Origin: Desulfovibrionales bacterium
GTDB lineage: Bacteria > Desulfobacterota > QYQD01
NCBI GenBank assembly: GCA_028715605.1
Contig: JAQURM010000011.1
Location: 2,840 to 66,839, forward strand
Direction: 5' to 3'
DNA: 64,000 bases
Positions 20,592 through 57,818 of the stretch are shown piece after piece (the stretch's first letter is position 1; every line of letters starts with the position of its first letter). The notes under the pieces were generated by a model that saw nothing but the letters and a program-made list of their open reading frames with translations, had not been told where the DNA came from and did not search any database. A program made the translations under genes and the position numbers.

Positions 20592-21767
20592 ATGCCTGAG
20601 AGTTGGCCTGTAAAGAGTTTTGCAGAATTTGCGACATTACACAGAGGTTATGATTTACCTATTCAAGATCGCAAGAAGGGTTCTATACCAATTGTTGGGT
20701 CAAATGGCATTGTTGGTTATCACAATGAAGCTAAAGTTAAAGGTCCGGGTGTAGTGACTGGCCGAAGTGGTTCAATTGGCATTTCATATTATGTCGGGGA
20801 TGATTATTGGCCATTGAACACAGGGTTATATGTCGAAGATTTTCATGGAAATAATCTATTTTACGTTCATTATTTTTTCCAATCATTCAATTTTGGTAAA
20901 TACGCAGCAGGAGTAAGCGTTCCCACTTTAAATAGAAACCTTGTTCATGAAGCCTCGGTATCTGTTCCCCAAATTCTTGAGCAGCAAAAAATCGCCGCTG
21001 TTCTCTTCAAGATTCAAAAAGCGATTGAGGTTCAGGAATCCATTGTCGAGAAGACGCGGGAGCTGAAAAAATCCACCCTGCATCATGTCTTTACTCACGG
21101 TCTGCGCGGAGAAAAGCTGAAAGAAACAGAGATCGGGCCAATGCCGGAGAGTTGGCTTATTGGAAAAATAGGTGACATCGGTAAGATTGTAACCGGAACA
21201 ACGCCGCCAACAAAACATAAAGAATATTATCAAGGTGGTCATTATCAGTTCATTGCGCCTAATGATATTGGAAAGACGACGAGAATTTACGAAACTGAGA
21301 AAAAAATAACGGATAAAGGATTGGAAGTATCGCGATTACTACCAAAAGAATCTGTCTGTTTCGTCTGCATAGGATCAACCATTGGCAAGGTAGGTATTAC
21401 TGTCGAGGAAAAGACGACAACAAATCAACAAATCAACTCTGTTATCGTGAATAATGATTACGATCCCTACTTTGTGACGTATCTTATGGATTACAAATCT
21501 GAATATATTGCCTCCTTTGCATCCCCAAGTCCTGTGCCAATTTTGAGCAAGGGCAAATTTGAAGAAATCAACATTATGTTGAGTTCCGATATAGAAGAAC
21601 AAAAAGAAATTGCTCGTGTTCTGATGATCATCGACGAAACAATAGAGATCCACACCGCAAAGAAATCCGCTCTGCAAGACCTCTTCAAAACCATGCTGAA
21701 TAAGCTGATGACCGGCGAGATTCGGGTGAAGGATCTGGACATTGATGTGTCCGAGGTAAGCGCATGA
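20592..21767 (+). CDS. hsdS: Type I R-M specificity subunit HsdS (two TRDs)
   Basis: 391 aa. Two target-recognition halves are separated by conserved helices (EQQKIAAVLFKIQKAIEVQESI.. and EQKEIARVLMIIDETIEIHTAKKSALQDLFKTMLNKLMTGEIRV). The start abuts the hsdM stop. Confidence 0.9.
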   Translation: MPESWPVKSFAEFATLHRGYDLPIQDRKKGSIPIVGSNGIVGYHNEAKVKGPGVVTGRSGSIGISYYVGDDYWPLNTGLYVEDFHGNNLFYVHYFFQSFNFGKYAAGVSVPTLNRNLVHEASVSVPQILEQQKIAAVLFKIQKAIEVQESIVEKTRELKKSTLHHVFTHGLRGEKLKETEIGPMPESWLIGKIGDIGKIVTGTTPPTKHKEYYQGGHYQFIAPNDIGKTTRIYETEKKITDKGLEVSRLLPKESVCFVCIGSTIGKVGITVEEKTTTNQQINSVIVNNDYDPYFVTYLMDYKSEYIASFASPSPVPILSKGKFEEINIMLSSDIEEQKEIARVLMIIDETIEIHTAKKSALQDLFKTMLNKLMTGEIRVKDLDIDVSEVSA

Positions 21768-22762
21768 AGGAAGAATCCAAAGGCGAAATAGTCATCTATC
21801 GTACCAAGGACGGCAAGACTGCCCTTGACGTCAACCTGAGCGGAGAGACCCTTTGGTTGAATCAAGGTCAGATGTCCATCCTTTTTGACAGGGACCGGTC
21901 CGTCATCACAAAGCACTTGAGCAATATATTCAAGAGCGGGGAATTGGATAAAAAAAGCAATGTGCAAAAAATGCACATTGCTGATTCCGATAAACCGGTA
22001 GTTTACTATAATCTGGATGTCATTATTTCACTTGGTTACCGCGTGAACTCAAAACGCGGCACCCAGTTCCGCATCTGGGCCACGCAGGTCCTCAAAGATC
22101 ATATCCTGAAAGGCTATTCGCTCAATGAGAAGCGGCTAAAGGAACAGAATGTCCGCCTGCTGGAATTGCAGAAGACAGTCAGCCTGATGCAGCGGGTCAT
22201 GGAAAGCCGGGAACTGGCCCGCGATGAAGCCACTGGACTTCTCCAGGTGATCACGGATTACTCGTATGCCTTATCGCTCCTGGATCAGTACGATCACCGG
22301 CAGTTGAAAATCCGGCATACCACCGAAAAGACCCCTTTTGCCCTGACCTACGAAGCAGCGAGGAGAGCTATTGACAAGCTCGGAGAACAATCGATGAAAA
22401 AGGGGCGGCCCGTTGCATTATTCGGACGGGAAAAAGATCAATCGTTCAAAGGCTCCCTGGGCGCGATCTACCAGACGCTCGACGGGAAAGAGGCCTATCC
22501 CAGCATCGAAGAAAAGGCCGCTCACCTTCTCTATTTCGTGGTCAAGAATCACTCTTTTATTGACGGAAACAAGCGCATCGGGGCATTCCTGTTCATCTGG
22601 TTTCTGGATGCCAGCGGAATTCTTTACGCTGGTGACGGCCGCAAGCGGATAGGCGACAATACCCTCGTCGCTCTGACCCTTATGATTGCGGAGAGCCGGC
22701 CCGAAGACAAGGACATCATCGTCAAGGTCATAGTGAACCTGATCAACAGGGACAATATATGA
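21764..22762 (+). CDS. RhuM-family protein with a C-terminal Fic/DOC domain
   Basis: The RhuM-type N-terminus is IVIYRTKDGKTALDVNLSGETLWLNQGQMSILFDRDRSVITKHLSNIFKSGEL..YNLDVIISLGYRVNSKRGTQFRIWATQVLKDH. The Fic motif is HSFIDGNKRIGAF. The start overlaps the hsdS stop by 4 nt. Confidence 0.88.
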   Translation: MKEESKGEIVIYRTKDGKTALDVNLSGETLWLNQGQMSILFDRDRSVITKHLSNIFKSGELDKKSNVQKMHIADSDKPVVYYNLDVIISLGYRVNSKRGTQFRIWATQVLKDHILKGYSLNEKRLKEQNVRLLELQKTVSLMQRVMESRELARDEATGLLQVITDYSYALSLLDQYDHRQLKIRHTTEKTPFALTYEAARRAIDKLGEQSMKKGRPVALFGREKDQSFKGSLGAIYQTLDGKEAYPSIEEKAAHLLYFVVKNHSFIDGNKRIGAFLFIWFLDASGILYAGDGRKRIGDNTLVALTLMIAESRPEDKDIIVKVIVNLINRDNI

Positions 22763-22775
22763 GAAGGGCGAAATC

Positions 22776-25691
22776 ATGACGCCGACTTTAGGCACAGAAA
22801 AACCAACCGTGCAGGACCCGATTGTTAAGTATGCAGACGAAATCGACTGGAGAGTCGTCCCCCAGGAGGAGGCCCTTTCCCTGAGAAAGGGGGAAAGCGG
22901 GCCTCTGTTCTACCGGGTCCTCGAAGAAAAGCTGATTGAACTGAATCCGGGATTGGTGTGCCGTGAAAATGTGGATGACATTATTCACCGCATGGAAGCC
23001 GTCCGGAATAATATCGAGGGGAATGCGGAAATCCTGTCCTGGCTCCGGGGGGAGCAGGCGATTTACGATGAAAACGAAAAGCGGCGCCGCAACGTGACGG
23101 TTGTTGATTTTGCCCGCGCCGGGCGTAACCTGTTTCAGGTGACCTCCGAGTGGCAGTACACGAACGGCCGTGAGACAAACCGCGCGGACATCATGTTTCT
23201 CATCAACGGGATTCCCGTTGCCATTGTGGAGACCAAAAGCGCGAAAAAAGCCAATGGGATGGAAGAGGCGCTCATTCAAATCCGGCGGTATCACCGGGAG
23301 ACCCCGGAAATGCTGACGGCGCCGCAGGTCTTCGATATGACCTATCTGGTTGATTTTTTCTACGGCCCCACCTGGAATCTGAACCGGAAAAATATCTTCA
23401 ACTGGAAGGATGAGGAAAAGGGAAACTTCGAAAAGAAGGTAAAGCGATTTTTTGACCGGGGGCATTTCCTCAAGATGCTGGGGGAATGGATCCTGTTCTA
23501 TGTCAAGGATGACGAACTCCAGAAAACGATCCTGCGCCAGCATCAGACCAGGGCTATCGAGAAAATCGTTCAGCGGTGCAGCGATGAAAAGAAAAAAACC
23601 GGCCTGATATGGCATACCCAGGGATCGGGAAAAACCTTCACGATGATCACGGCGGCACAGCAGATTCTTGAGAAAAAGGATGTCTTCGGGAAGGCGACGG
23701 TTATCCTGATGATCGACCGCAATGAGCTGGAGGGCCAACTTTCCGGCTGGGTGGAGCGGATTCTCGGCGAGATGCAATCCCATGATATCAGCATTGAACA
23801 GGCTTACAGCAAGATTCGCCTGAGGCAACTCCTCAAGGCGGACTTCAGAGGGCTGATTATTTCGATGATCCATAAGTTTGAAGGGATTCCCAAGAACATC
23901 TGCACCCGCCCCAACGTCATCGTTATGCTGGATGAGGCCCACCGGTCTGTCGGGGGAGACCTGGGCAACTACCTGGTCGCCGCCCTCCCGCAGGCAACTC
24001 TTATCGGGTTTACGGGCACGCCCATCGACAAAACGGCCTATGGCAAGGGAACCTTCAAAATCTTCGGAAAAGAGGATGATAAAGGTTACCTGGACAAATA
24101 TTCCGTTGCGGAATCAATCGAAGACGGCACGACGCTCCCCCTCAATTATATGTTGACCCCCAATGAAATTCGTGTACCCAGAGAAGAACTGGAAAGGGAA
24201 TTTCTCGACCTTGTTGAGGCGGAAGGGGTCAGCGATGTCGATGAATTGAATAATATCCTAGACCGGGCGGTAAAGCTCAAGACCTTTCTCAAGTCGCCGG
24301 ACCGTGTGGAGAAGGTCGCGGCCTTCATTGCCGGGCACTTTCGTGAGAATGTCGAGCCCCTTGGTTATAAGGCCTTTGTGGTTGGTGTGGATCGGGAGGC
24401 TTGCGCCCTTTACAAAGAGGCCCTCGACAAGCTCCTGCCGCCGGAATATTCAACGGCCATTTATACGGCCGCCCACAATGATAGTGAAAAATATCCCCTC
24501 GTTTACAAACACCAGCAGACAGCGGAAGAGGAGAAGAAAGCCAGAAAGGTTTTCCCCAAGCCGGACGCCCTGCCGAAGATCTTCATTGTAACGGATAAGC
24601 TGCTCACCGGTTTTGACGCCCCCATTCTGTATTGCATGTACCTGGATAAACCGATGCGCGACCATGTCCTTCTTCAGGCCATCGCGCGGGTCAACCGGCC
24701 CTACGAGGAAGAAGGGGACATCAAGAAACCCTGCGGTCTGGTGGTTGATTTTGTAGGAATCTTTGAGAAACTGGAAAAGGCCTTGGCCTTTGATTCCGAT
24801 GTCGTCAGCGGGGTGATCAACAACCTTGATGTCCTGCTCGCTCGCTTTATCGAATTGATGAAGGGACAAGCCCGACCGTACCTCGATCTGACCCGCGGCA
24901 AGGTCGATGATAAGATGGTCGAAAGGGCAATAGATGCCTTTGTAGATCAGAGCAAGAGAGAGGAATTTTATAAATTTTTCAAAGAGCTGGAAACGCTTTA
25001 CGAGATATTATCTCCTTCCCCCGCCCTTCGGGACCATATGGAAGACTTCGGCCTGCTTTCAATACTCTACCAGGTTGTCCGCAATGCCTTCAGGAAAAAA
25101 ACGGGGTTCTACGGCGACATCGCAAAAAAAACAGAACAACTGGTCAGGGAAAAGGCCGAAACCTTTGGTCTGGAGACCACGACGCCGGCAGTCAAGATCG
25201 ATGAGACGACCCTGAAGGCGCTGAAAGACAGCAAAGCATCGACCAATATAAAAGTCATCAATCTCATCAACAGTATCATCAAAACGGCAACGGATGAAGG
25301 CGACGGCAGTCCCTATCTGAAACCCATCGGGGAACGAGCAGAAGCCATTCAGGAGGCTTTCGACGACCGGCAAATAACGGCGCTCGATGCGCTCAGAAAA
25401 GTAGAGGCGCTGATCAATGAGGTTCTCGAAGCCCGGAGACAGCAGGAAGAGACAGGTTTTGACATAAACACCTTCACGATTTACTGGCTGCTCAAACAGG
25501 AAAACGTGAAGTGGTTTGAAAATCTTGCACCGATTGTCAATAACGCATTTCTCCGCTTCCCGAATTTCAAGGACAACATTGCGGAACTGAGACAGCTCAA
25601 GGCGGAACTATACAAGCTGATGCTCCCTGTCGTCGGCAAGGATTTGATGCTGGGCATAGTTGAGAAGCTCTTGAGGCTGGAACGCAAATGA
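22776..25691 (+). CDS. hsdR: Type I R-M restriction subunit HsdR (SF2 helicase/nuclease)
   Basis: 971 aa. Walker A is HTQGSGKTFTM and the DEAH box is MLDEAHRS. The N-terminal PD-(D/E)xK-like region is DIMFLINGIPVAIVETKS. Confidence 0.93.
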   Translation: MTPTLGTEKPTVQDPIVKYADEIDWRVVPQEEALSLRKGESGPLFYRVLEEKLIELNPGLVCRENVDDIIHRMEAVRNNIEGNAEILSWLRGEQAIYDENEKRRRNVTVVDFARAGRNLFQVTSEWQYTNGRETNRADIMFLINGIPVAIVETKSAKKANGMEEALIQIRRYHRETPEMLTAPQVFDMTYLVDFFYGPTWNLNRKNIFNWKDEEKGNFEKKVKRFFDRGHFLKMLGEWILFYVKDDELQKTILRQHQTRAIEKIVQRCSDEKKKTGLIWHTQGSGKTFTMITAAQQILEKKDVFGKATVILMIDRNELEGQLSGWVERILGEMQSHDISIEQAYSKIRLRQLLKADFRGLIISMIHKFEGIPKNICTRPNVIVMLDEAHRSVGGDLGNYLVAALPQATLIGFTGTPIDKTAYGKGTFKIFGKEDDKGYLDKYSVAESIEDGTTLPLNYMLTPNEIRVPREELEREFLDLVEAEGVSDVDELNNILDRAVKLKTFLKSPDRVEKVAAFIAGHFRENVEPLGYKAFVVGVDREACALYKEALDKLLPPEYSTAIYTAAHNDSEKYPLVYKHQQTAEEEKKARKVFPKPDALPKIFIVTDKLLTGFDAPILYCMYLDKPMRDHVLLQAIARVNRPYEEEGDIKKPCGLVVDFVGIFEKLEKALAFDSDVVSGVINNLDVLLARFIELMKGQARPYLDLTRGKVDDKMVERAIDAFVDQSKREEFYKFFKELETLYEILSPSPALRDHMEDFGLLSILYQVVRNAFRKKTGFYGDIAKKTEQLVREKAETFGLETTTPAVKIDETTLKALKDSKASTNIKVINLINSIIKTATDEGDGSPYLKPIGERAEAIQEAFDDRQITALDALRKVEALINEVLEARRQQEETGFDINTFTIYWLLKQENVKWFENLAPIVNNAFLRFPNFKDNIAELRQLKAELYKLMLPVVGKDLMLGIVEKLLRLERK

Positions 25692-26150
25692 TTGAAGCTC
25701 CCCGCAGCCCGCCTGCGGCGGACGGGGAATCTCCGTATGCAAGGTAAAATGCATCATATTCGCTCGCTAACCCCGCCGCAAGCAGCGGGGAATGCGCTCG
25801 CTATGCATGTTCAACCATCCAATAACAAAGGAAAGGGCTTGTCTGCGAAAGAGCAGTTTAAATCTGACATTACCCGCTGGGCTGCCATCATGAAGGTGAA
25901 CCCCGTGCAAATTCGAGTCCAAATCATGAAAAAAAAGTGGGCGTCATGCTCAGCCAAAGGACGGATATGTTTCAGTACTGATCTTCTTAAGGAATCCAGA
26001 ACTTTTCAAGAATACGTCATCATCCATGAACTTCTCCATCTCCAGGTGCCCAATCACGGCAAGCTTTTCAAGAGCCTTATGAACGCCTATTTGCCGGGGT
26101 GGGAGACGGTTGTGGCGGCACGAAACGGAGACACTACAAGAAGCCTATGA
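25692..26150 (+). CDS. Short DUF45/YgjP-like (M48/WLM-type) metallopeptidase. Its 5' region is occupied by GC-rich hairpin repeats.
   Basis: The core WASCSAKGRICFSTDLL..YVIIHELLHLQVPNHGKLF..LPGWE has an HExxH motif. The first ~37 codons of the listed ORF consist of two hairpins (25700-25727, 25771-25790). The ATG at 25803 is a more plausible start. Confidence 0.7.
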   Translation: MKLPAARLRRTGNLRMQGKMHHIRSLTPPQAAGNALAMHVQPSNNKGKGLSAKEQFKSDITRWAAIMKVNPVQIRVQIMKKKWASCSAKGRICFSTDLLKESRTFQEYVIIHELLHLQVPNHGKLFKSLMNAYLPGWETVVAARNGDTTRSL

Positions 26151-26224
26151 ATATGAGGCATTATTGGGACAAAATACGATTTCTTCAAAACGATGAACAT
26201 TAATCTTATGGAGCCAAAACATCT

Positions 26225-29200
26225 ATGAGTAGAGCCGGCACTAAATCCAACCAAGGAGACGACTACCAACGTCTGGTAGCATTGCATTGGCTTATCCGAC
26301 TCATAAATGACGAAGATGGGATATCTTACATACAAGCTGAATCCAATGGCCTTCCCGGTATTGACGAGAAAATCAGTGTCGATGACGTGGTGGTTGTATA
26401 TGCTGATGGCCGACGTCGCCACATTCAAGCCAAAAAAAATCAGCCGCAGAATCGTACCTGGTTATTATCTGATGAAAGCATCTCTACCGAATTACCAAAG
26501 ATCCGAAACCAGTTAGAAAGTAAGGACGATACACTTGTTGAACTTTATTCCGCCACACCATTCGGCGACCTCAAATCCCTTGCCGACGCAAGTAGAGAGT
26601 ACCCTGACCTTAATGCATTCCGGCGAGAGAGCGGCAAAAACCTGAAAACCAGCCTGACCACAATAGCCAATAAATGGGAACGTTCCGAGGCGGAATCTCT
26701 CAATCTGCTGCGTCGCCTTGAATTCGGATCACATCACTCTCATGAGGACTGGAATAGGCAAAACAGGCAGGATCTGGCAAGATTGGTTACCCATGTGGAC
26801 ATTGCACTACCAGTACTTGAATCTTTTCTAAACGCCCATCAGTCCAAGCTTCAGGCCGCGACATCAACTATTCGTCGTGACGATGTTATTCAGCATCTGG
26901 CGCAAAAGGGCGTTGTGAAAGCGATCATGAAAAGTGAGGCAGAAATCCTTCAAGAATTTCGACATGCATCCCGCATCGGCAGAGCATGGCAGCGAACCGT
27001 TGGCGGTCGTCGAATTGAACGAACCGAGCTGAAGGAACTGATTCGTTTGATTGAGGAAGGTACTGACACCATACTTGTCACCGATCGCCCAGGCAGTGGC
27101 AAGACGTGCTTGCTGCTGGATCTTGCAGACCGCATCGAGCAAGATCCTCGCTTTGGTCTGCTCTTCCTCAAAGGAGATCGCTTCGCCAAACTTCGAAATG
27201 AGAGCGAGCTGAAAAGTGCTGGCCTTCCGGAAGACATCCTAGGTCTCTGCGGTCGGCTTTCAGAACACCGTCGGGTCGTGGTGATTATCGATTCTTTGGA
27301 CGTTCTGTCGATGAACCGTGAGCACGGAGCCCTCTCCATGTTCCTTCGGCTGATTGACCGACTGAATCCCATACTGAATATCACAGTGGTGGCTGCCTGC
27401 CGTTCATTTGACCTTCAGTACGACCCGCTCCTCCGTGATCGCGAATGGAAGCATAAAATTCGTGTGGCGAACTTTGACTTTGACACGGTTGTGGCCCCTC
27501 TGTTAAAGGAATGGGGCGTTCCAGAGGAGAAGGTGGATGCGGATTTGCGGCGTCTTCTGGTGCTCCCTCAAAATCTGCGGTTGTTCGAGGCTATAGCCAT
27601 GCGCGGTGGGCGCTTCAACATACGAACGGCCTATGAACTGCAAGAGGTATACCTCCAAGAGGTGGTCGCTAAGGATTCTGACCTCGGTGCACCTGCGATG
27701 GGGGCTTTACAGACCTTGGCTGATCGAATACTCCGTGAACGCACTCAATTGATACATCCCGCCACTTTTTCAATTGGTGAATCGATTCGTCGTGCGCTCG
27801 TGAGTAACGGGGTGTTGTATGAAGACCCCATCGGTGGTCTCGGATTCAGTCATCAGACCCTTTTTGACAATTTGGCAGTCTATTCATCACTAGCACGCGA
27901 CGAGAACCTTGTCGGGTTTATAAAGTCACACCCTCCCTTTCCATTCTTGCGTGCTGCGGTGCGTACCTTCATGTTTCATCTTCGGACCCATGCCCCTGAC
28001 CTTTTCCATAGACAAGTATGGGCTGCCCTGCATGACACGGAGATCGCCTATCACTTCAGGCGCCTGATCGCCGAGTCCTTGGCAGAAATCGATCCGCAGA
28101 CAGATGATTGGCCATTGCTGCGGAGGCTCTTTCAACATGAACCGGAGCTTTTTCGCCGCTTGTTTTGGCGTCTCGAAGGTGACGCTTGGTGGAAAATGCT
28201 TCTCGATCACTGGCTGCCCTCGCTCTCGTCACCTGCTTCTGATGGCAACTGGTACAGTTTGCTTGTCTCTAGGTTCGACCTCTGGATGAACAGCCATCCA
28301 GTCGAAGTAGTTTCTTTATGGAGGCGTGCATTTTCCGACAATTGGGGAGATAAGAATGATCTCGCAATGCGAATCACCATCCAACTCCACAAATTCCAAC
28401 ACTGGAACACTGAAGGCATCCCGGAACTGATCGAAACTTTGTTAGCTGAAAATAGAGCTGAGCGGGATTTGTTTGGACAGGTCCTCAACCTCTATACAGA
28501 AGCCACGAACCGCGGCGACGAGTTGTTGTGGCAATATATCATTAAAGATGTCGACCCGCAGGATGTTCGACGTTTCGATATTTCAAAAAAACTGCACTGT
28601 GCTCCCCACGTTTTCCATTACAAAGAATTTTTGAAAGACAGGTTGATCCGTTCGGATTGGTTTTTGGATGCTGTTATCAATACCTTGGAGGAGTGGGCAA
28701 CTAAAGATAGTATTTATTCCAGCAAGCATCGGCTAAGATCAGCGTTCCTACACAGCTCGTCCTGGGAATATCGACACAGCCACCACGATGCGCACCCTGC
28801 TGACGATCTTACCGTTTTGCTTGCCGGTGTTGAGCATGCTCTCAAGTACCATGCTCAGGCCAATGATGACTGGTGGAAAAGAAGTGAACCGCAGCTCAGA
28901 GCCCTCCGGGAAGTGACACTGCTATACTTCCTTGCCCTTGTCTATAAGGAAAATCCGGAAACCAATGTGAATGGCATGGTCCATCTCCTGACGGATGTGG
29001 AACTGCTTCGCTATGGCCACATTGAGCATGAACTGGGCGAATTGATTCAGGCTGGTTATCATCTGTTGCCTTCCGAAGTTCAGGAGACCAATCAGCGAAC
29101 CGTCCTCAAGCTTTATGAAGACGAGATTCAGGGCGAGGAAGGCATGCCTTTATGGGTACACCGCACCATCTATGATTACCTCGTCTGGATACCCGCGATA

Positions 29201-30823
29201 TTCAGGCTCCCTGACAGCCAAGACTTCGTCGAACGTTTCAAGCCGCAGTTCGGCACCGCCTTACCTGAGCCGCACATCCACTCTTGGGGAGGATTCGTTG
29301 GGTCTCCGGTTCCTCTCGAAAATTTTATAAAGCTGAATAATACCGATACGATCCGTCTGCTCGATTATTACACCAATTACAATGACCGCAGCAGTCATCC
29401 CGCAGATTTCAATAAGGGCGGTCGTGACAGTGTGGCGCATGTTCTGAGCGAGGCGAGTGCCATAAACCCGATGCGCTACTTTACCCTGCTGCTCACTCTT
29501 GAGCAGCAAGGCTTTCGGTCGGCTGGGTATATTACCAGCCTCCTCGACGGCATAGCCCATCATCTTCGCTACCGCTTCGGACGATTACAGCCACCACAAG
29601 GTTGGCAACCGGTTGAGCCTCTGCCGGATGGACCAAGCCTAGCTCGTTCGTTATTAGATCTGATTGAGGGCCGCCCTAAATTGTGGGATGATGGTCATGC
29701 AGTTGCCCGCCTACTGGAGGCCTGCTGCGAGGTCCTGGAGGATCATGATTCGGTAGAACGACTTGTTTTTCAACTGTTCCGGCTGCTCCACCACCCCGAT
29801 CCTGAAGAAGAACGACAAAGGATCTTCAGTCAGAATAAGCAGGGTATCACAGCCCAGGATCTCATGTCTGACGCTATCAACACCGTTCGCGGTGTTGCGG
29901 CCGGCAATGCCATCACATTGTACAATCGACTCCTGGAAAAGGAGATTGAACCGCCCGAATTGCTCTTTCCCCTACTGCGTCATTTTGCACGCGACCCTAT
30001 CGGGGCTGTCCGTGCGGCCGTACTGGACCATTTACTTTTTTTGACTTCCAGACGCCATACCCTAGGGTGGCAGATTTTCCACGACATCTTTCGCGAGACC
30101 CAAATCCATCTGTGGCCTCTCGCTGAAAAGCACCTCTATCACCAGTATCACGAATATTTCGAGGAAGTCGCTCCTTGTCTGAACAGAATGCGTAACGAAG
30201 CTCCAGATGAAGCAGGGGGAGCGTGGGGCCGAATTGCTACCTTGGCGGTACTTTCCGGACATATAGAAGAGGACAATCTATTTCAGCAGTTGGAGTCGAT
30301 GAACTTAACCGAAGCTTGGCTGGGCGCTTCTCAGGTATTCGCGGCCAATCTGGATCAGCATCTGCATGACAATCTTTGCATTAATGGGCTACGACGTATC
30401 CTTCAAACAAAGAATCTGGACCAGAATGTATATAGACGTATCGAGCACGCCTTTGACCCGAAGAATCAAGGCCGTCACCTCGGTCCTGATGTTGCTTTAA
30501 ATTTTATTGATAGTATTGCACCTGATGATCAACATTTTGACCTCCATATTCTCCTCGACTGGATTGCGGACTTTGCCGGGAGAAATCCCGTCGCTGCTCT
30601 TGACATTTGTGAACGACTTGCTGAAAGACTCGGCACGATGCCCACCCCATATCGGATATGGCATACCGAACCGCTGATCGCCGCTTTGTCCAGCATTCTG
30701 AGGGAAGCAGACGAAACCGACGATACGAACCTGATCCACCGGGCCATTCGTCTGCAGGATCAATTTCTACGCATGGACATTCCAGGGATGGACGATTATT
30801 TCAAGCTGGCAAGTCAACTCTGA
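26225..30823 (+). CDS. 1532-aa STAND-type NTPase with an N-terminal DUF4297/Cap4-like PD-(D/E)xK nuclease domain and a ~1100-aa helical-repeat C-terminus. It is a candidate Avs/NLR-like antiphage sensor.
   Basis: The N-terminal part is GDDYQRLVALHWLIRLI..IQAES..VDDVVVVYADGRRRHIQAKK (E39, D53/D54, Q68-x-K70). Walker A is DRPGSGKTCLLLDL (nt 27092-27106). Walker B is RRVVVIIDSLDVL (nt 27275-27301). The sensor-like arginine context is VVAACRSF. The remainder is Leu/His/Trp-rich, helix-like sequence with no motif I recognise. Confidence 0.75.
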   Translation: MSRAGTKSNQGDDYQRLVALHWLIRLINDEDGISYIQAESNGLPGIDEKISVDDVVVVYADGRRRHIQAKKNQPQNRTWLLSDESISTELPKIRNQLESKDDTLVELYSATPFGDLKSLADASREYPDLNAFRRESGKNLKTSLTTIANKWERSEAESLNLLRRLEFGSHHSHEDWNRQNRQDLARLVTHVDIALPVLESFLNAHQSKLQAATSTIRRDDVIQHLAQKGVVKAIMKSEAEILQEFRHASRIGRAWQRTVGGRRIERTELKELIRLIEEGTDTILVTDRPGSGKTCLLLDLADRIEQDPRFGLLFLKGDRFAKLRNESELKSAGLPEDILGLCGRLSEHRRVVVIIDSLDVLSMNREHGALSMFLRLIDRLNPILNITVVAACRSFDLQYDPLLRDREWKHKIRVANFDFDTVVAPLLKEWGVPEEKVDADLRRLLVLPQNLRLFEAIAMRGGRFNIRTAYELQEVYLQEVVAKDSDLGAPAMGALQTLADRILRERTQLIHPATFSIGESIRRALVSNGVLYEDPIGGLGFSHQTLFDNLAVYSSLARDENLVGFIKSHPPFPFLRAAVRTFMFHLRTHAPDLFHRQVWAALHDTEIAYHFRRLIAESLAEIDPQTDDWPLLRRLFQHEPELFRRLFWRLEGDAWWKMLLDHWLPSLSSPASDGNWYSLLVSRFDLWMNSHPVEVVSLWRRAFSDNWGDKNDLAMRITIQLHKFQHWNTEGIPELIETLLAENRAERDLFGQVLNLYTEATNRGDELLWQYIIKDVDPQDVRRFDISKKLHCAPHVFHYKEFLKDRLIRSDWFLDAVINTLEEWATKDSIYSSKHRLRSAFLHSSSWEYRHSHHDAHPADDLTVLLAGVEHALKYHAQANDDWWKRSEPQLRALREVTLLYFLALVYKENPETNVNGMVHLLTDVELLRYGHIEHELGELIQAGYHLLPSEVQETNQRTVLKLYEDEIQGEEGMPLWVHRTIYDYLVWIPAIFRLPDSQDFVERFKPQFGTALPEPHIHSWGGFVGSPVPLENFIKLNNTDTIRLLDYYTNYNDRSSHPADFNKGGRDSVAHVLSEASAINPMRYFTLLLTLEQQGFRSAGYITSLLDGIAHHLRYRFGRLQPPQGWQPVEPLPDGPSLARSLLDLIEGRPKLWDDGHAVARLLEACCEVLEDHDSVERLVFQLFRLLHHPDPEEERQRIFSQNKQGITAQDLMSDAINTVRGVAAGNAITLYNRLLEKEIEPPELLFPLLRHFARDPIGAVRAAVLDHLLFLTSRRHTLGWQIFHDIFRETQIHLWPLAEKHLYHQYHEYFEEVAPCLNRMRNEAPDEAGGAWGRIATLAVLSGHIEEDNLFQQLESMNLTEAWLGASQVFAANLDQHLHDNLCINGLRRILQTKNLDQNVYRRIEHAFDPKNQGRHLGPDVALNFIDSIAPDDQHFDLHILLDWIADFAGRNPVAALDICERLAERLGTMPTPYRIWHTEPLIAALSSILREADETDDTNLIHRAIRLQDQFLRMDIPGMDDYFKLASQL

Positions 30824-30826
30824 ACC

Positions 30827-30868
30827 TCCGATTGGCACATCGGTCGCGCCCTGTATGGCCGTAAACGG
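30827..30868 (+). pseudogene. 42-bp fragment homologous to codons 7-20 of sbcD (SDWHIGRALYGRKR)
   Basis: tcc gat tgg cac atc ggt cgc gcc ctg tat ggc cgt aaa cgg aligns with sbcD 31755-31796, tcc gac tgg cat att ggc cgc gcc ctt tat ggc cgc aag aga. That is 33/42 nt identical and 14/14 aa identical. There is no start codon, and the fragment lies directly after the STAND stop codon. Confidence 0.8.
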
Positions 30869-30920
30869 TGCATGTCGATACTTTGCTCGATAGATTACAT
30901 CATATTTATGGTCAAAATAT

Positions 30921-30946
30921 GTCGGCAAACTTGACAATTTGCCGAC
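30921..30946. promoter_or_regulatory. Inverted repeat GTCGGCAAA-N8-TTTGCCGAC enclosing a TTGACA hexamer. It is a candidate AbiEi operator/promoter.
   Basis: The 9-bp arms are perfect (30921-30929 and 30938-30946). The spacer cTTGACAa contains a consensus -35 hexamer. The repeat lies immediately 5' of the abiEi reading frame. Confidence 0.45.
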
Positions 30947-31571
30947 GTTTATGTACCATGCCTCCATGAAGAGCGCTAAAGAAAAAGCAATCGACATTAT
31001 CCAGAATCGGGGTGGGTTTATCCGCACTCATGAGGCATTTCAGCAGGGAATACACAGAAGGACCCTATATGGTCTCCGTGATGAAGGGGCGCTGATTTCA
31101 ACTACCCGGGGAATTTACAGGCTTGCTGATATGGATATCCCGGCGGAGATTAATCTTGTTGAGGTTGCCAAGGCTGTTCCCAACGGTGTCATCTGTCTGA
31201 TTTCGGCCCTCTCTTTCCACGGCTTGACTACGCAGATTCCTCATGAAATCTGGATCGCTATAGAAAGAAAAACAAGAAAACCAAAAATAATCTATCCACC
31301 GGTCAGGATCATTTATTACAGCAATTCGCCATTCCAGGCGGGTATCGGAATTCACCGCATTATGGAGCAGGAAATCCCTATTTACGATGCGCCAAAAACC
31401 GTGATTGACTGTTTCCGTTGGCGCAATACGGTGGGGCTCGATGTCGCTCTTGAGGCGGCTCGGGACTATCTTAAACAGCGTTATGCAAGCCTGGCCAAGC
31501 TGATGGAATACGCGAAAATCTGCAAAGTTGAGAAGCTTGTTATGCCGTATCTTCAGGCCATGATCTCATGA
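30939..31571 (+). CDS. abiEi: AbiEi-family type IV toxin-antitoxin antitoxin / transcriptional regulator (COG5340-like)
   Basis: The N-terminal wHTH pattern is IIQNRGGFIRTHEAFQQGIHRRTLYGLRDEGALISTTRGIYRL. The C-terminal pattern is GVICLISALSFHGLTTQIPHEIWIAI. The real start is probably one of the ATGs at 30951 or 30966. Confidence 0.8.
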   Translation: MPTFMYHASMKSAKEKAIDIIQNRGGFIRTHEAFQQGIHRRTLYGLRDEGALISTTRGIYRLADMDIPAEINLVEVAKAVPNGVICLISALSFHGLTTQIPHEIWIAIERKTRKPKIIYPPVRIIYYSNSPFQAGIGIHRIMEQEIPIYDAPKTVIDCFRWRNTVGLDVALEAARDYLKQRYASLAKLMEYAKICKVEKLVMPYLQAMIS

Positions 31572-31696
31572 AAAATATTTCAGCGATCATGGAAAAAATA
31601 AGGACATTTTTACATCCCGTCATCAATGCAATCGAGAAAGATGCCCACTTTAACAAGTCTTGGCCGCCCGGAGGGCCATGGCAAGAGGCCCTGTGA
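31568..31696 (+). pseudogene. 42-codon ORF coupled to the abiEi stop (ATGA overlap). It may be a remnant of the cognate AbiEii toxin gene.
   Basis: The product is MKNISAIMEKIRTFLHPVINAIEKDAHFNKSWPPGGPWQEAL*. The position and 4-nt overlap are those expected of a toxin gene, but a full AbiEii is several-fold longer. I cannot verify sequence similarity to AbiEii. Confidence 0.3.
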
Positions 31697-31736
31697 CCGT
31701 ATCGGGTTCGAAGAAAAACACAAGGAAGGATAAGTA

Positions 31737-32966
31737 GTGAAGCTTCTCCACACATCCGACTGGCATATTGGCCGCGCCCTTTATGGCCGCAAGAGATACG
31801 AGGAACTCAAAGCGTTCCTTGACTGGTTGGCCGGTCTTATCGAAGACGAAAATATTGATGTGCTGCTCGTGGCGGGCGACGTGTTCGACAACAGCACGCC
31901 GAGCAACTATGTACAGACGTTGTATTACCGTTTCCTGTACCGTGTGGCGGCCGCTCCAAACCGTCATGTGGTGGTCACGGCAGGAAATCATGATTCGCCG
32001 TCTTTTTTAAATGCCCCCAGGGAGCTCCTGAAATTTCTGAACATCCATGTCGTGGGGTACGCATCCGATTCTCCTGAAGATGAAATAGTCATGCTGACCG
32101 GGCCGGATGATGATCCCCGGCTCATTGTTTGCGCCATCCCGTATCTCAGAGACCGCGATATCCGCACCGCCGAGGCCGGTGAGAGCCTTGAGGACAAGGA
32201 GAGAAAAATCATAGAAGGGATCAGGGCTCATTACCGGATGGTGTATGAGGCGGCCGAACAGAAACGCTCCACGCTGAAAAAGCCCGTTCCGATTGTCGCC
32301 ATGGGGCATCTGTTCACCGCAGGCGGCCAGACCATTGATGGCGATGGAGTGCGCGAACTGTATATCGGCTCCCTTTTAAAGGTCGGAACAGATGTGTTTC
32401 CCGAACATATCGACTACCTTGCCTTGGGGCATCTTCATATTCCTCAAACGGTGGGCGGTTCAGATTTCATACGCTATTCAGGTTCACCCCTGCCCATCGG
32501 CTTCGGGGAGGCTGAACAGGAAAAGAGCGTGGTCCTCGTGGACTTTTCGGGTAATGCGCCCACTGTCGCAACTATTCCAGTACCCAGGTTCCAGGAACTG
32601 AAGACCCTGCAAGGGGATTGGCCAACCATCGCACGAAATATCGAAGAACTAAAGTCCGGGGGGAGCAACGCCTGGCTGGAGATAGTATATGAAGGAGATG
32701 AGATAGCCGGCAGCCTCCGCGAGCGCCTGGATGAGGCAATCGAAGGGACCGGCATAGAGATCCTCCGCGTCAAGAACAACCGGGTGCTGGAACGCGCCAT
32801 GAGCGGAATGGATGTGGATGAAACACTCGACGATCTGGATGCAACAGACGTGTTCAAACGCTGCCTTGAATCGCACGAAGTCCCGGAGGATCAGCGGCCG
32901 GCGCTTTTGAGCGCCTACCGGGAAATCATAGTCTCCCTCAACGAGCAAGACCAGATGGCTGAATAG
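31737..32966 (+). CDS. sbcD: Exonuclease SbcCD, nuclease subunit SbcD (Mre11-type metallophosphoesterase)
   Basis: LHTSDWHIG, VAGDVFD, GNHDS and GHLH motifs are present. It is collinear with E. coli SbcD along its whole length. The start is GTG. Confidence 0.93.
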   Translation: MKLLHTSDWHIGRALYGRKRYEELKAFLDWLAGLIEDENIDVLLVAGDVFDNSTPSNYVQTLYYRFLYRVAAAPNRHVVVTAGNHDSPSFLNAPRELLKFLNIHVVGYASDSPEDEIVMLTGPDDDPRLIVCAIPYLRDRDIRTAEAGESLEDKERKIIEGIRAHYRMVYEAAEQKRSTLKKPVPIVAMGHLFTAGGQTIDGDGVRELYIGSLLKVGTDVFPEHIDYLALGHLHIPQTVGGSDFIRYSGSPLPIGFGEAEQEKSVVLVDFSGNAPTVATIPVPRFQELKTLQGDWPTIARNIEELKSGGSNAWLEIVYEGDEIAGSLRERLDEAIEGTGIEILRVKNNRVLERAMSGMDVDETLDDLDATDVFKRCLESHEVPEDQRPALLSAYREIIVSLNEQDQMAE

Positions 32967-32977
32967 GAGAAAGGGGA

Positions 32978-35900
32978 ATGAAGATACTTGGTGTCCGGTT
33001 CAAGAACCTGAACTCACTCACGGGCGAATGGCAGGTTGATTTCACCCACCCGGATTATTCGTCTAACGGCATATTCGCCATCACAGGCCCCACGGGATCA
33101 GGAAAGACGACCATCCTGGATGCCATCTGCCTCGGGCTTTACGGCCGGACGCCCCGCCTGGACAAGGTTACGAAAAGCAGCAACGAGATCATGTCGCGTC
33201 AGACAGGTGAATGTTTTTCCGAAGTTACATTTGAGACGCAGAAGGGCCGTTACCGTTGCCACTGGAGCCAGTATCGCGCCCGGAAAAGATCCGATGGTGC
33301 ATTACAACAGGCAAAACATGAAATAGCCGATGCCGATTCCGGGGCCGTCCTGGAATCAAAAATAAACCAGGTAGGTGAATTTATCGAGAAGGCCACGGGC
33401 ATGGACTTCGAGCGTTTCACCCGTTCGATGCTGCTGGCCCAGGGGGGATTCGCGGCCTTTCTCCAGGCCCCTCCCGACGAGCGGGCGCCCATCCTGGAGC
33501 AGATCACCGGGACCGAAATCTACAGTCAGGTATCCATGAAAGTTCATCAACGCCGCACGGAAGAACACAACAACCTTGAGATATTGCAGGCCGAGCTGAA
33601 AGGAATCCAGGTTTTAAACGAAGATGAAGAAAGGGGACTGCAATCCGTCCTGAAAGAAAAGCAAGGCCAGGAGACGGAACTTGCCGGAAAAGTGAGTGAA
33701 ATGCGCAAGGCCCTGACCTGGATCGAGGGGATGGTTGCCTTGGAGAAAGAGCTGGTAGAACTGGACAAGAAACAGCAGGATTTTGAGAAGCGCCGGCAGG
33801 AGTTTGATTCGGAATCAAAAAAGCTGGAAAAATCCCGCAAGGCCCTCGGTCTTGAAGGAGATTACAGAGGGGTTGCCGCTTTACGTGCGGAGCAGGACAA
33901 TGAGACAAAGGAGGTTAATGGCGCAATTGCGATTCTGCCTGAAAAGGATAAGGCCTGCGCAGCCGCGTTGACGGCAAAAAAAACCGCTGAGGCCCGGTTG
34001 GATGAGGCGCGAGCCAGGCAGACATCGGAAACTGAAGTCATCAAGAAGGTGAGGGAGATCGACGCCCGGCTGGGTGAACAGAAAAAGCAGCTCGCAGAGA
34101 AAAACAAGGCAATCGGAGAAATCGAAAAACAGGGGGAAGGCTACAGAAGCCTTGTCAAAAGCGGTGAACAGGAACTGAAAAAGGCTCATGCCGCCCTGAA
34201 AGCTATCCGTGAATACCAGGCAAAACACGCTGCCGATGCCGCGTTGATGACCAACCTCAGCGCCATCGAGAGGGGATTTGCGTCGTTTCGGAATGTTGAG
34301 ACAAAGCATGTGGAGGCATTGAAAGAACTTTCCGCTACGGCGGGGAAAAAGGAGTCCGCCCTTGCCGGTTGCCGCAAGATAGAAGCCGATCATGAAAAAT
34401 CCCGCCAGGAATTTGAGAAAGGACAAAGTGAACTTAAGCACCTGACTGATGAAATCACGGCCATCCTCAGGGGACGTGAAATCAGCCAGTGGCGCCATGA
34501 TATGGACGTCTTTAAAGACCGCGAGCGTCTTTTGATCCAGACAGGCGAGACCATTGCACGGATTGACAAGACATACACTGCGCTGGACAGCCTGAAATCG
34601 GGCATTGAAAAATTAAAAGCCGGTAATGTGAAACTCTTAGATGAGATAAAATCAAGCGCCGATAAAAAAGCGCTTCTGGAAAAAACTATTGTAACCCTGG
34701 AAACGCAGGTATCGCTTCTCAGCCGTATCCGTGACCTTGAGGAAGAAAGGAAACAACTTGAAGACGGCAAACCATGCCCGCTGTGCGGCGCTACCGATCA
34801 TCCTTATGCGAAGGGGAATGTCCCGGTCTTGAACGAGGCGGAGGCGGAGCTTCAAAAAACGAAGGATGAATGCAAAAAGGCGTCTCGTCATCTGAACAAG
34901 CTGGAAGCCGACCGGGTTCGGACCGCAACTGAAATCCAGCATACTGAAAAAGAGATGACGGAGAAGAATGCGACGCTGGACGCCGACGAAAAACAGTGCG
35001 CTGACGCCCTGTTGAGACTGAATATCAAGGCCGCGCCGGAAGAACGCGCCAGTAAGGTGCACGAAGAGATTGCAGGCGGTCAGGCGAAAATTGCTGAAAC
35101 ATCCGGCATTATCGCCATCGCCGAAGAGAATGGCAAAAAGGAGAAGTCAGCGCAAACTGCCCTGGAAAAAATAAGGGAGAAGTTTGACAACTCAGACAAG
35201 GCCTTACAGGAGGCCAGACACAACCTGGAGACGGCCGATCGTGATCATGAACGGCTGACCAAAGATTGCGCCTCCCTGGCGGAAGAGACTCAAAAGGCCC
35301 GTAACGATACCCTTAAGGATGTTGAACCCTTTGGAGTCAGTCAGATTCCGTTAGACAGCCTTGACACTATACTGAAAAACCTGAGAACGCGCAAAGAAGG
35401 ATGGCAGGCGAAGGAGGCTGAAAAAACCACGCTGGAGAAACAGATCCATGAACTGAAAGCGGAGATTGAGAAATATAATGCCCTCCTGGGCAGCCTGGAA
35501 GAAGACTTGGCGGCAAGGCGCAAAGATCGTGACGATCTAAAGATGGAGTATGAATCATTGTGTGCTTCACGCCGGGAACTCTTCAGAGAGAAGAACGCTG
35601 ACCAGGAGGAAAAGCGCCTGGGAGATGCCGTGGATAACGCGGGTAAAGCCCTTGAAAAAGCACTCGAAGAATATGGGCAAATTGGAAAAGAGATCAGCGC
35701 CCTGAAAGAGAAGATAAATTTATTGAAAGTAAAAATAGGAAATCGGGCCAAGGAACTGGCGCAGGCCGGGCCGAAACTGATGGAGCGGATCAAAACGGCA
35801 GGATTTGAAGACGAGGCAGACTACCTTTCATCACGCCTGAGTGAAGAAGAGCGGGACATCCTCGCTGACAAAGAGAAACGCCTGATCAAGGAAAAAACGG

Positions 35901-40166: not shown

Positions 40167-40176
40167 AGCGGTCAGC

Positions 40177-40313: not shown

Positions 40314-40332
40314 AAACTAGTCAAGGAGCATT

Positions 40333-57765: not shown

Positions 57766-57818
57766 GATTGCATAGAATGATTGGCTCACAGGTTGCTAAT
57801 ATGGAGGGGGAATAATAT

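What the first reader, a model, noticed from the sequence alone, without database searches (positions are those of the whole stretch)
26225..30823. Single-gene STAND NTPase with a Cap4/DUF4297-like nuclease head and a ~1100-aa unrecognisable sensor tail: candidate new Avs/NLR-like antiphage protein
**Seen in sequence**
- The 1532-aa ORF has three parts.
- Residues ~8-75 fit a PD-(D/E)xK nuclease of the DUF4297/Cap4 pattern: GDDYQ..(helix)..IQAES..DDVVVV..HIQAKK.
- A P-loop NTPase follows, with GSGKT (290-294), hhhhDSLD (351-359) and a downstream Arg (CRSF).
- The remaining >1100 aa are helical-repeat-like sequence.

**Established knowledge**
- Effector plus STAND NTPase plus repeat sensor is the architecture of Avs/AVAST and bacterial NACHT defence proteins.
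- Such genes cluster with R-M and abortive-infection genes. Here the gene sits between a type I R-M system and abiEi.

**Inference**
- The protein may be a pattern-recognition nuclease. Its C-terminal sensor matches nothing I recognise, so its trigger could be new.
Basis: partly seen in the sequence, partly recalled or inferred. Interest (0 to 1): 0.8.

Follow-up and report, generated by a model that had tools for sequence, protein, structure and literature searches.

The report
Avs7 antiphage sensor, already described family
The 1532-residue gene is a real single-gene antiphage protein, but it belongs to the Avs7 family, whose structure, trigger (the phage major capsid protein) and DNA-cutting mechanism were published in 2026, so it is an ordinary new member, not a new kind of sensor.

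Summary
The three-part reading holds: a Cap4-type PD-(D/E)xK nuclease head, a STAND NTPase, and a long all-helical sensor.

The sensor is not unrecognisable. The whole protein aligns end to end with PDB 9N00/9N01/9YIX (phmmer E=1e-210; family profile E=0, 1170 bits; 31-32% identity). That entry is Salmonella enterica Avs7 (Lee et al., Nature 2026, PMC13581612).

In SeAvs7 the bilobed TPR sensor clamps a newly made HK97-fold major capsid protein, helped by host EF-Tu. ADP is exchanged for ATP, the protein tetramerises, and the Cap4 domains degrade dsDNA. All nucleotide-binding residues and the nuclease motif are conserved in the window protein. So are two of the three tested capsid-contact residues.

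Homologues are numerous (811 clusters at 50% identity). They swap the effector head (caspase, GT4 glycosyltransferase, EAD7) and sit in unrelated neighbourhoods, as expected for a mobile single-gene defence.

The gene lies between a type I R-M operon and a lone abiEi.

Verdict: a new member of a known kind, of low interest.

Still open: which capsids this Syntrophales-type copy recognises, and whether it uses EF-Tu.

The parts
26225..30823 (+). avs7-family gene, 1532 aa plus stop codon
   Evidence: ORF confirmed. End-to-end match to SeAvs7 PDB 9N00: phmmer E=1e-210 and profile E=0. Global identity 31-32%.
26210..26213 (+). GGAG Shine-Dalgarno-like motif, 11 nt upstream of the ATG
   Evidence: Read directly from the sequence. 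Function is inferred.
26225..26974 (+). Cap4-type PD-(D/E)xK nuclease effector domain (residues about 1-250). Motif residues D53/D54 and Q68-x-K70.
   Evidence: PADLOC LmuA (Cap4 nuclease) E=3.8e-13 over residues 7-247. D53, D54, Q68 and K70 are invariant in 32 homologues. The best fold match of the N-terminal model is Avs3, which carries a Cap4 nuclease. 31% identical to the SeAvs7 Cap4 domain.
26975..27898 (+). STAND NTPase module NBD-HD1-WHD (residues about 251-558)
   Evidence: Pfam AAA, residues 285-412, E=2e-5; weak nSTAND5 and AAA_16 hits. 39% identical to the SeAvs7 NTPase. Fold hits to Avs3, Avs4, NLRC4, NLRP3, NOD2 and Apaf-1. H543 aligns with SeAvs7 H545, the ADP-contacting histidine.
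27092..27106 (+). Walker A motif GSGKT (residues 290-294)
   Evidence: Aligns to SeAvs7 G288-T292. Invariant in 187 family members.
27275..27301 (+). Walker B motif VVVIIDSLD (residues 351-359). D356 aligns with SeAvs7 D358.
27401..27403 (+). R393, equivalent to SeAvs7 R395, which contacts the ATP gamma-phosphate in the active tetramer
   Evidence: Alignment. Invariant. Role taken from the paper.
27899..30820 (+). Avs7-type TPR-like alpha-helical sensor (residues about 559-1532), ending in the short terminal helix
   Evidence: Residues 880-1532 alone match SeAvs7 885-1520, E=1.7e-71. 30% identity over the sensor. AF2 model is all-alpha, mean pLDDT 87.6, with a terminal helix at residues 1522-1531. 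SeAvs7 capsid contacts N1204, Y1289 and N1361 correspond to N1219, Y1305 and D1377.

Best explanation
The gene encodes a member of the Avs7 family of antiviral STAND (NLR-like) pattern-recognition nucleases.

**Mechanism, by homology with SeAvs7**
1. The protein rests as an autoinhibited, ADP-bound monomer. The Cap4 nuclease is held against the NTPase and the C-lobe of the sensor.
2. During infection, the bilobed TPR sensor (residues about 559-1532) closes around a newly synthesised HK97-fold major capsid protein monomer. Host EF-Tu may bind the outer face of the sensor.
3. The clamping motion pushes the C-terminal helix against the nucleotide-binding domain. ADP is released and ATP binds (K293/T294, D356, R393).
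4. The protein assembles into a tetramer, which brings the Cap4 PD-(D/E)xK domains (D53/D54, Q68, K70) together.
5. These domains degrade double-stranded DNA indiscriminately, which aborts the infection.

**Shown here**
- The ORF, the three domains, end-to-end homology to SeAvs7, conservation of the catalytic and nucleotide-binding residues, family size, effector swapping and variable genomic context.

**Inferred from the published work on SeAvs7**
- The trigger, the oligomeric state, DNA cleavage and defence.
For: **Homology to SeAvs7**
- phmmer against PDB sequences finds a single hit, 9n00_A (also 9n01 and 9yix): E=1.1e-210, query 1-1529 against chain 1-1520.
- The sensor half alone gives E=1.7e-71.
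- A profile of 34 homologues gives E=0, 1170 bits, positions 1-1527 against 1-1522, and nothing else in the PDB at E<=0.01.
- 9N00/9N01/9YIX are apo SeAvs7 and its complexes with the capsid protein and EF-Tu. The mechanism is described.

**Conserved residues**
- Global identity is 32%: Cap4 31%, NTPase 39%, sensor 30%.
- SeAvs7 K291, T292, D358, R395, H545 and R367 correspond to K293, T294, D356, R393, H543 and R365. K, D and R are invariant in 187 full-length members; the histidine and R367 positions vary in a few SeAvs7-like or other members but are kept in 99 and 98 of the 99 window-like members.
- Capsid-contact residues N1204 and Y1289 are conserved; N1361 is Asp here.

**Domains**
- Cap4 head: PADLOC LmuA E=3.8e-13; nuclease motif invariant.
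- The residue 1-700 model (pLDDT 88.1) matches Avs3 8dgc best (E=8e-16), then Avs4 and then the eukaryotic NLRs.

**Family behaviour**
- The sensor alone finds 811 clusters at 50% identity with E<=1e-3.
- Homologues replace the nuclease with a caspase, a GT4-conflict glycosyltransferase or EAD7. The paper reports at least 20 effector types.
- Neighbourhoods of six homologues share no partner gene but often hold toxin-antitoxin pairs, BrxR, RhuM or IS elements.
- Here the gene lies between a type I R-M operon and abiEi.
Against: - Identity to the only characterised member is low (31-32%). Specificity and accessory-factor use cannot be transferred with certainty.
- The bilobed shape of the sensor could not be verified by superposition. 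The Foldseek PDB library stops at 2026-04-08 and lacks 9N00, so the sensor model hit only generic karyopherin and CAND1 solenoids with TM below 0.25.
- The EF-Tu interface is only partly kept: Q999 and D1059 are identical, D1003 is Glu, K1044 is Arg and H1048 is Tyr. The paper restricts EF-Tu use to a clade of 192 of 1757 homologues. I could not place this protein in that tree because no supplementary tables are held.
- No experiment exists for this protein or its host.
Confidence: 0.88

Rival explanations
1. It is a genuinely new Avs/NLR-like family with an unknown sensor and a new trigger.
For: - Pfam recognises only a marginal AAA domain.
- PADLOC v2 (2023) recognises only the nuclease head.
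- The Foldseek search of the sensor returns only generic solenoids.
Against: - There is a collinear full-length sequence match to SeAvs7, including the sensor: E=1e-210 for the whole protein, 1.7e-71 for the sensor half, and profile E=0.
- The libraries that fail predate the 2026 description or exclude the entry.
- Seven representatives are at least 33% identical to both this protein and SeAvs7, so the two are linked through intermediates.
Confidence: 0.03
2. It is an Avs7-family protein whose sensor has drifted to a different ligand, or which does not use EF-Tu. The scaffold would be the same but the specificity or co-factor different in this Syntrophales/cyanobacterial/Bacteroidota branch.
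For: - The sensor is only 30% identical to SeAvs7.
- One of three tested capsid-contact residues and three of five EF-Tu-contact residues differ.
- The paper limits confident EF-Tu complexes to 192 of 1757 homologues.
Against: - The paper finds capsid-protein sensing shared even with the much more distant Dsr1 sensors. It states that recognition rests on overall shape complementarity rather than individual contacts.
- N1219 and Y1305 are nearly invariant across the family.
- The changes at the EF-Tu positions are mostly conservative, and the same residue types occur in SeAvs7-like sequences.
Confidence: 0.08
3. It is the LmuA-type effector of a Lamassu system, working with the SMC-like protein encoded downstream (32978-36649).
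For: - The best PADLOC hit of the protein is LmuA, E=3.8e-13.
- The downstream 1223-aa protein hits LmuB, E=1e-25.
Against: - The LmuA match covers only the Cap4 nuclease domain: residues 7-247 of 1532, against profile positions 10-237 of 373.
- The downstream protein has the SbcC architecture (AAA_23 plus SbcC Walker B). It is paired with a canonical SbcD (Metallophos plus SbcD_C).
- abiEi lies between the two genes.
- None of the six homologue loci examined has an SMC partner.
Confidence: 0.01

Closest known systems
SeAvs7 (Salmonella enterica Avs7; PDB 9N00, 9N01, 9YIX; Lee et al., Nature 2026, PMC13581612)
   Same: - Same length (1532 against 1523 aa) and same domain order: Cap4 nuclease, STAND NTPase, TPR sensor.
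- Collinear alignment over the whole protein.
- Same Walker A, Walker B, Arg and WHD-His residues, and the same autoinhibition Arg (R365, equivalent to R367).
- Same nuclease motif.
- A terminal helix is present.
- It is a single-gene system.
   Different: - Only 31-32% identical.
- The regulatory loop of the Cap4 domain (SeAvs7 199-215) is shorter by about 7-10 residues (10 in the alignment; two 3-residue inserts plus a one-residue gap).
- EF-Tu contact residues are partly substituted: D to E, K to R, H to Y.
- The host is an anaerobic Syntrophales-type bacterium, not an enterobacterium (closest genomes 69-72% identical).
- The trigger, EF-Tu use and defence are untested for this copy.
SeAvs3 / EcAvs4 (Avs1-4; PDB 8DGC, 8DGF)
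   Same: - Tripartite antiviral STAND proteins.
- Avs3 also carries an N-terminal Cap4-type nuclease.
- They are the best fold matches of the residue 1-700 model, E=8e-16 and 1e-12.
- Activation is by direct binding of a conserved phage protein followed by tetramerisation.
   Different: - No detectable sequence similarity at E<=1 with a single sequence or E<=0.01 with a profile.
- Their sensors recognise the large terminase (Avs3) or the portal (Avs4), not the capsid protein.
- The paper reports a different Cap4 tetramer arrangement.
Dsr1 (defence-associated sirtuin 1)
   Same: According to the paper, Dsr1 carries a homologous Avs7-type sensor and is also triggered by the major capsid protein.
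   Different: - Dsr1 has a SIR2 effector and no STAND NTPase.
- No PADLOC model other than LmuA and SAVED_PDDEXK matched this protein at E<=1.
- The paper needed 9-16 PSI-BLAST iterations to link the sensors.
- The relationship was not tested here.
CBASS Cap4 / Lamassu LmuA nucleases (DUF4297)
   Same: The N-terminal PD-(D/E)xK fold and motif are the same.
   Different: There is no SAVED domain, no CD-NTase operon and no LmuB/LmuC partners. Here the nuclease is only the effector module of a STAND protein.

Membership tests
Avs7 (antiviral STAND 7) | Sensor domain homologous to the SeAvs7 TPR sensor (SeAvs7 residues 561-1523) | tested here: met
   Residues 880-1532 alone match SeAvs7 885-1520, E=1.7e-71. 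30% identity over 943 aligned sensor positions. The profile match runs to the last residues.
Avs7 (antiviral STAND 7) | Central STAND NTPase with Walker A Lys/Thr, Walker B Asp, the ATP gamma-phosphate Arg (R395) and the WHD His (H545) | tested here: met
   K293/T294, D356, R393 and H543 align to SeAvs7 K291/T292, D358, R395 and H545. K, D and R are invariant across 187 members; H is kept in 186. Fold hits to Avs3/4, NLRC4, NLRP3, NOD2 and Apaf-1.
Avs7 (antiviral STAND 7) | N-terminal effector; in SeAvs7 a Cap4 PD-(D/E)xK nuclease (variable across the family) | tested here: met
   PADLOC LmuA/Cap4 E=3.8e-13. D53, D54, Q68 and K70 invariant. 31% identical to the SeAvs7 Cap4 domain. Other homologues carry a caspase, GT4 or EAD7 head.
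Avs7 (antiviral STAND 7) | Bilobed, sharply bent sensor that envelops the capsid protein | tested here: inconclusive
   The AF2 model of residues 441-1532 is confident (pLDDT 87.6) and all-helical.
Avs7 (antiviral STAND 7) | Short C-terminal helix of conserved length that clashes with the NBD on activation | tested here: met
   The alignment reaches the C-terminus. The model has a terminal helix at model residues 1082-1091, which are protein residues 1522-1531.
Avs7 (antiviral STAND 7) | Activated by direct binding of an HK97-fold major capsid protein; ATP-dependent tetramer degrades dsDNA; protects against phage | not testable with these tools
   Known only for SeAvs7. Here only conservation of N1219 and Y1305, with D1377 in place of Asn, can be shown.
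Avs7, EF-Tu-associated clade (192 of 1757 homologues) | Conserved EF-Tu interface residues (SeAvs7 Q999, D1003, K1044, H1048, D1059) | tested here: inconclusive
   The window protein has Q, E, R, Y, D: 2 identical, 2 conservative, 1 changed. Similar residue mixes occur in SeAvs7-like and window-like groups. The authors' tree and tables are not held.
Avs3 (terminase-sensing Cap4 STAND) | Sensor homologous to the SeAvs3 TPR sensor | tested here: not met
   No sequence hit to 8DGC at E<=1 or with the profile at E<=0.01. Fold similarity is limited to the nuclease and NTPase part.
Lamassu (LmuA-LmuB-LmuC) | A short LmuA effector encoded with an SMC-like LmuB and LmuC | tested here: not met
   Only the Cap4 domain matches LmuA. 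The downstream SMC-like gene is SbcC, paired with SbcD. Homologue loci have no such partner.
CBASS Cap4 | Nuclease fused to a SAVED sensor, in an operon with a CD-NTase | tested here: not met
   The SAVED_PDDEXK models match only weakly (E=0.0022 and 0.027), and the match lies within the N-terminal region (residues 9-222). No CD-NTase is found among the neighbours.
Avs8 (PD-lambda-4), bNACHT | Match to the PADLOC models of those families | tested here: not met
   No PADLOC hit other than LmuA and SAVED_PDDEXK at E<=1.

The most novel reading that the evidence does not exclude
This 31%-identical branch of Avs7 is found in Syntrophales, cable bacteria, filamentous cyanobacteria and Bacteroidota. 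It may have retuned the shared scaffold. It could recognise a capsid class, or another phage protein, that SeAvs7 does not see. It could also work without EF-Tu or with a different abundant host protein as a structural co-factor. If so, it would be a natural comparison for how NLR-like sensors change specificity and host-factor dependence.
Probability: 0.1. Interest if true: 0.45.

Novelty: new member of a known kind. Interest (0 to 1): 0.15.

Why it matters
- **Annotation:** a gene labelled at best 'AAA family ATPase' can be named an Avs7-type capsid-sensing nuclease.
- **Defence island:** the stretch 18.7-31.6 kb can be read as a small island holding a type I R-M operon with an embedded RhuM/Fic gene, Avs7, and a lone AbiEi.
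- **Host range of the family:** Avs7 reaches strictly anaerobic Syntrophales-type bacteria.
- **No new principle:** the architecture, trigger and activation mechanism were published in 2026.
- **What is left to ask:** which capsids this divergent copy recognises, and whether it uses EF-Tu.

Tried and rejected
1. The Foldseek search of the sensor model against the PDB gave only karyopherin, CAND1 and HEAT solenoids with TM 0.1-0.25. The library is cut at 2026-04-08 and does not contain 9N00, so this says nothing for or against Avs7 membership.
2. Megablast of the gene against plasmids found no match. tblastn found 40-42% homologues on cyanobacterial plasmids, some with caspase heads.
3. The paper's supplementary tables (the Avs7 list and the EF-Tu clade) are not held. 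I therefore could not check whether homologues are on the authors' list or where this protein falls in their tree.
4. A literature search for 'Avs7' mostly returned unrelated uses, including a phage named AvS7.
5. The Lamassu reading was prompted by LmuA and LmuB hits. It was rejected because the downstream gene pair is canonical SbcCD.
6. The CBASS Cap4 reading was rejected: there is no SAVED domain and no CD-NTase.
7. I looked for an AbiEii remnant after abiEi. The 42-aa ORF at 31568-31696 has no Pfam hit.
8. The promoter and terminator scan of 25500-31800 found no more sites than shuffled sequence, so it gives no evidence for or against co-transcription with the hsd operon.
9. Model coordinates are not exposed to the sandbox, so lobe geometry could not be measured.

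Full report
**1. The observation**

The window holds an uninterrupted ORF at 26225-30823 on the + strand, with an ATG start, encoding 1532 aa. A GGAG lies 11 nt upstream of the start.

- GDDYQ at residues 11-15.
- IQAES at 36-40.
- DDVVVV at 53-58.
- HIQAKK at 66-71.
- GSGKT at 290-294.
- VVVIIDSLD at 351-359.
- CRSF at 392-395.

They are not chance. In an alignment of 32 full-length homologues (44-84% identical over the first 700 residues), these residues are invariant: G11, Q15, D53, D54, Q68, K70, K71, G290-T294, D356, D359, R393 and H543.

The neighbourhood is as described:
- Upstream, on the same strand, is a type I R-M operon. It comprises hsdM 18762-20591, hsdS 20592-21767, a RhuM/Fic gene 21764-22762, hsdR 22776-25691 and a YgjP-like peptidase 25692-26150.
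- Downstream are abiEi (30939-31571), then sbcD and sbcC.

The rest of the window is ordinary chromosome of an anaerobe. It encodes multihaem cytochromes, an FlpD-like hydrogenase subunit, UPF0182, MreB and two-component systems.

**2. What the libraries say**

- Pfam sees only a marginal AAA domain (residues 285-412, E=2e-5) and sub-threshold nSTAND5 and AAA_16 hits.
- NCBIfam sees nothing useful.
- PADLOC v2 recognises only the head, as LmuA (the Cap4-type nuclease of Lamassu), E=3.8e-13 over residues 7-247. It returns no Avs or NLR model.

**3. The decisive result**

A sequence search of the PDB returns exactly one hit. It is 9n00_A (also 9n01 and 9yix), an 'AAA family ATPase' of 1523 aa. 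The match has E=1.1e-210 and aligns query 1-1529 to chain 1-1520.

- The C-terminal 653 residues alone give E=1.7e-71 against chain residues 885-1520.
- A profile built from 34 homologues gives E=0 and 1170 bits, positions 1-1527 against 1-1522. Nothing else in the PDB reaches E<=0.01.

[quoted passage not shown] 9N00 is apo SeAvs7. 9N01 and 9YIX are the monomeric and tetrameric complexes of SeAvs7 with the ZL19 major capsid protein and EF-Tu.

**4. What Avs7 is, from the paper**

- SeAvs7 has a Cap4 nuclease, a STAND NTPase (NBD-HD1-WHD) and a bilobed TPR sensor (residues 561-1523).
- It protects E. coli against nine Drexlerviridae phages.
- The major capsid protein is its only activator in a 73-gene screen.
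- The sensor envelops the HK97-fold capsid protein. Host EF-Tu binds the outside of the sensor and enhances assembly.
- ADP is exchanged for ATP.
- An asymmetric tetramer forms and degrades dsDNA.
- Inactivating the nuclease abolishes both defence and toxicity.
- The sensor is shared with Dsr1.
- The family carries at least 20 different effectors and shows extensive horizontal transfer. The authors verified 3,272 Avs7 sequences in nr.
- EF-Tu use is predicted only for a clade of 192 of 1,757 representatives.

**5. How well this protein fits**

I rebuilt the SeAvs7 sequence (residues 1-1520) from the printed alignments and aligned it globally to the window protein.

| Region | Identity |
|---|---|
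| Whole protein (1490 aligned positions) | 32% |
| Cap4 domain | 31% |
| NTPase | 39% |
| Sensor | 30% |

(a multiple alignment gives 31%)

Functional residues map as follows:

| SeAvs7 | Window protein | Role |
|---|---|---|
| K291/T292 | K293/T294 | Walker A |
| D358 | D356 | Walker B |
| R395 | R393 | ATP gamma-phosphate contact |
| H545 | H543 | ADP contact (WHD) |
| R367 | R365 | Autoinhibition |
| N1204 | N1219 | Capsid contact |
| Y1289 | Y1305 | Capsid contact |
| N1361 | D1377 | Capsid contact |
| Q999 | Q999 | EF-Tu contact |
| D1003 | E1003 | EF-Tu contact |
| K1044 | R1044 | EF-Tu contact |
| H1048 | Y1048 | EF-Tu contact |
| D1059 | D1061 | EF-Tu contact |

- Across 187 full-length members the Walker A Lys, the Walker B Asp and the Arg are invariant. 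The WHD His is kept in 186.
- The EF-Tu positions show similar residue mixes in SeAvs7-like and window-like groups. Clade membership therefore cannot be decided.
- The Cap4 regulatory loop (SeAvs7 199-215) is shorter here by about 7-10 residues.
- Seven representatives are at least 33% identical to both proteins, so the two are linked through intermediates.

**6. Structure predictions**

- Residues 1-700 fold confidently (pLDDT 88.1, pTM 0.80). The best matches are Avs3 8dgc (E=8e-16) and Avs4 8dgf (E=1e-12). NLRC4, NLRP3, NOD2, Apaf-1, SAMD9 and AVAST5 follow. This confirms a Cap4-type head on a STAND NTPase.
- Residues 441-1532 fold as an all-helical solenoid (pLDDT 87.6) that ends in a short helix.
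- The Foldseek search of the sensor gave only generic solenoids with TM below 0.25. The library is cut at 2026-04-08 and lacks 9N00, so the bilobed shape remains unverified here.

**7. Family behaviour, checked independently**

- The full protein finds more than 451 relatives. Most are about 1520 aa. They come from Desulfobulbaceae (Electrothrix, Electronema), Thiothrix, many filamentous cyanobacteria and Bacteroidota.
- The sensor alone finds 811 clusters at 50% identity with E<=1e-3, and 230 with E<=1e-30.
- Relatives with other heads exist: a caspase (P0054, P0114), a GT4-conflict glycosyltransferase (P0183), EAD7 (P0136), or no head at all (P0255, P0132).
- Cyanobacterial plasmids carry copies.
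- The closest named genomes are Syntrophales and Smithellaceae MAGs, at 72% and 69% identity.

Six homologue loci share no neighbour with the window or with each other:

| Locus | Neighbours |
|---|---|
| L002 | PemK, HicAB and an IS element |
| L003 and L006 | Housekeeping genes |
| L004 | TonB genes and an antitoxin |
| L005 | BrxR directly upstream, then RhuM and HipA |
| L007 | Ribonucleotide reductase and TetR |

This is the pattern of a mobile, self-contained, single-gene defence.

**8. Rivals**

- **A truly new family.** Excluded by the end-to-end homology to SeAvs7.
- **Lamassu.** Suggested by the LmuA and LmuB hits. It fails because only the nuclease domain matches LmuA, and the downstream SMC-like gene is SbcC next to a canonical SbcD.
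- **CBASS Cap4.** Fails for lack of a SAVED domain and a CD-NTase.
- **Retuned specificity or co-factor.** This divergent branch may have changed what it recognises or whether it uses EF-Tu. I rate this at about 0.1. The paper finds capsid sensing conserved even in the far more distant Dsr1 sensors, and it attributes recognition to overall shape rather than to single contacts.

**9. Verdict**

The architectural and defence interpretation is right. The claim of novelty is not: the gene is a new, uncharacterised member of the described Avs7 family. Interest is low, at 0.15. The open points are the capsid range of this copy and its use of EF-Tu.

Noticed in passing
window 21764-22762 (+): A 332-aa RhuM plus Fic/DOC protein lies inside the type I R-M operon, between hsdS and hsdR. 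It matches the PADLOC candidate defence family PDC-S23 at E=8e-137. A RhuM gene also follows the Avs7 homologue of Thiothrix (L005 14598-15599).
   Followed up: partly
window 18762-20591 (+): The HsdM methyltransferase carries an N-terminal Xre-type HTH_3 domain (residues 11-49) ahead of HsdM_N and N6_Mtase. This suggests a fused regulator. Its best PADLOC model is matched only over profile positions 725-1228 of 1236.
   Followed up: no
window 25692-26150 (+): A short (152 aa) YgjP-like/SprT-like metallopeptidase starts immediately at the hsdR stop. It matches only the C-terminal half of the Pfam model (positions 111-199 of 207). It has no PADLOC hit.
   Followed up: no
window 30921-31696: abiEi (PADLOC AbiEi E=7e-74) has no abiEii toxin gene after it. 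Only a 42-aa ORF (31568-31696) with no Pfam hit follows, and sbcD starts at 31737. A palindrome with an 11-pair stem (GTCGGCAAATT GTCA AGTTTGCCGAC, 30921-30946) overlaps the TTGACA -35-like hexamer at 30931. It could be an AbiEi autoregulatory operator. The likely true start is the ATG at 30966.
   Followed up: partly
window 56000-62000, esp. 57819-60248 (+): This stretch has low GC (0.40-0.44 against about 0.50 elsewhere). It holds an 809-aa calcineurin-like phosphoesterase that hits PADLOC PDC-S60 (E=3e-13) and an 'Effector endonuclease' model. It may be a second acquired or defence-related island.
   Followed up: no
window 38943-42848 (+): Three consecutive paralogous nucleotidyltransferase genes of the GlmU/GlgC type (NTP_transferase plus hexapeptide; 407, 417 and 421 aa) lie here. 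They follow a GalT-like gene and a DHH-family gene.
   Followed up: no
L005 9080-9985 (Thiothrix MAG): A BrxR-type WYL regulator (WHD_BrxR, WYL, BrxR_CTD) ends 16 bp before the Avs7 homologue. This hints that some Avs7 genes are under BrxR-like control. There is no such gene in the window.
   Followed up: no
homologues P0054, P0114, P0183, P0136; plasmids H2-H6: Avs7-type NTPase-plus-sensor bodies occur with a caspase, a GT4-conflict glycosyltransferase or an EAD7 head instead of the nuclease. Several are on cyanobacterial plasmids.
   Followed up: partly
paper PMC13581612 against the PDB 9N00 sequence: The paper lists the ATP-contacting residues as 'Thr291, Lys292'. In the deposited sequence, whose numbering agrees at D358, R395 and H545, the order is K291, T292. 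This is probably a slip in the text.
   Followed up: yes
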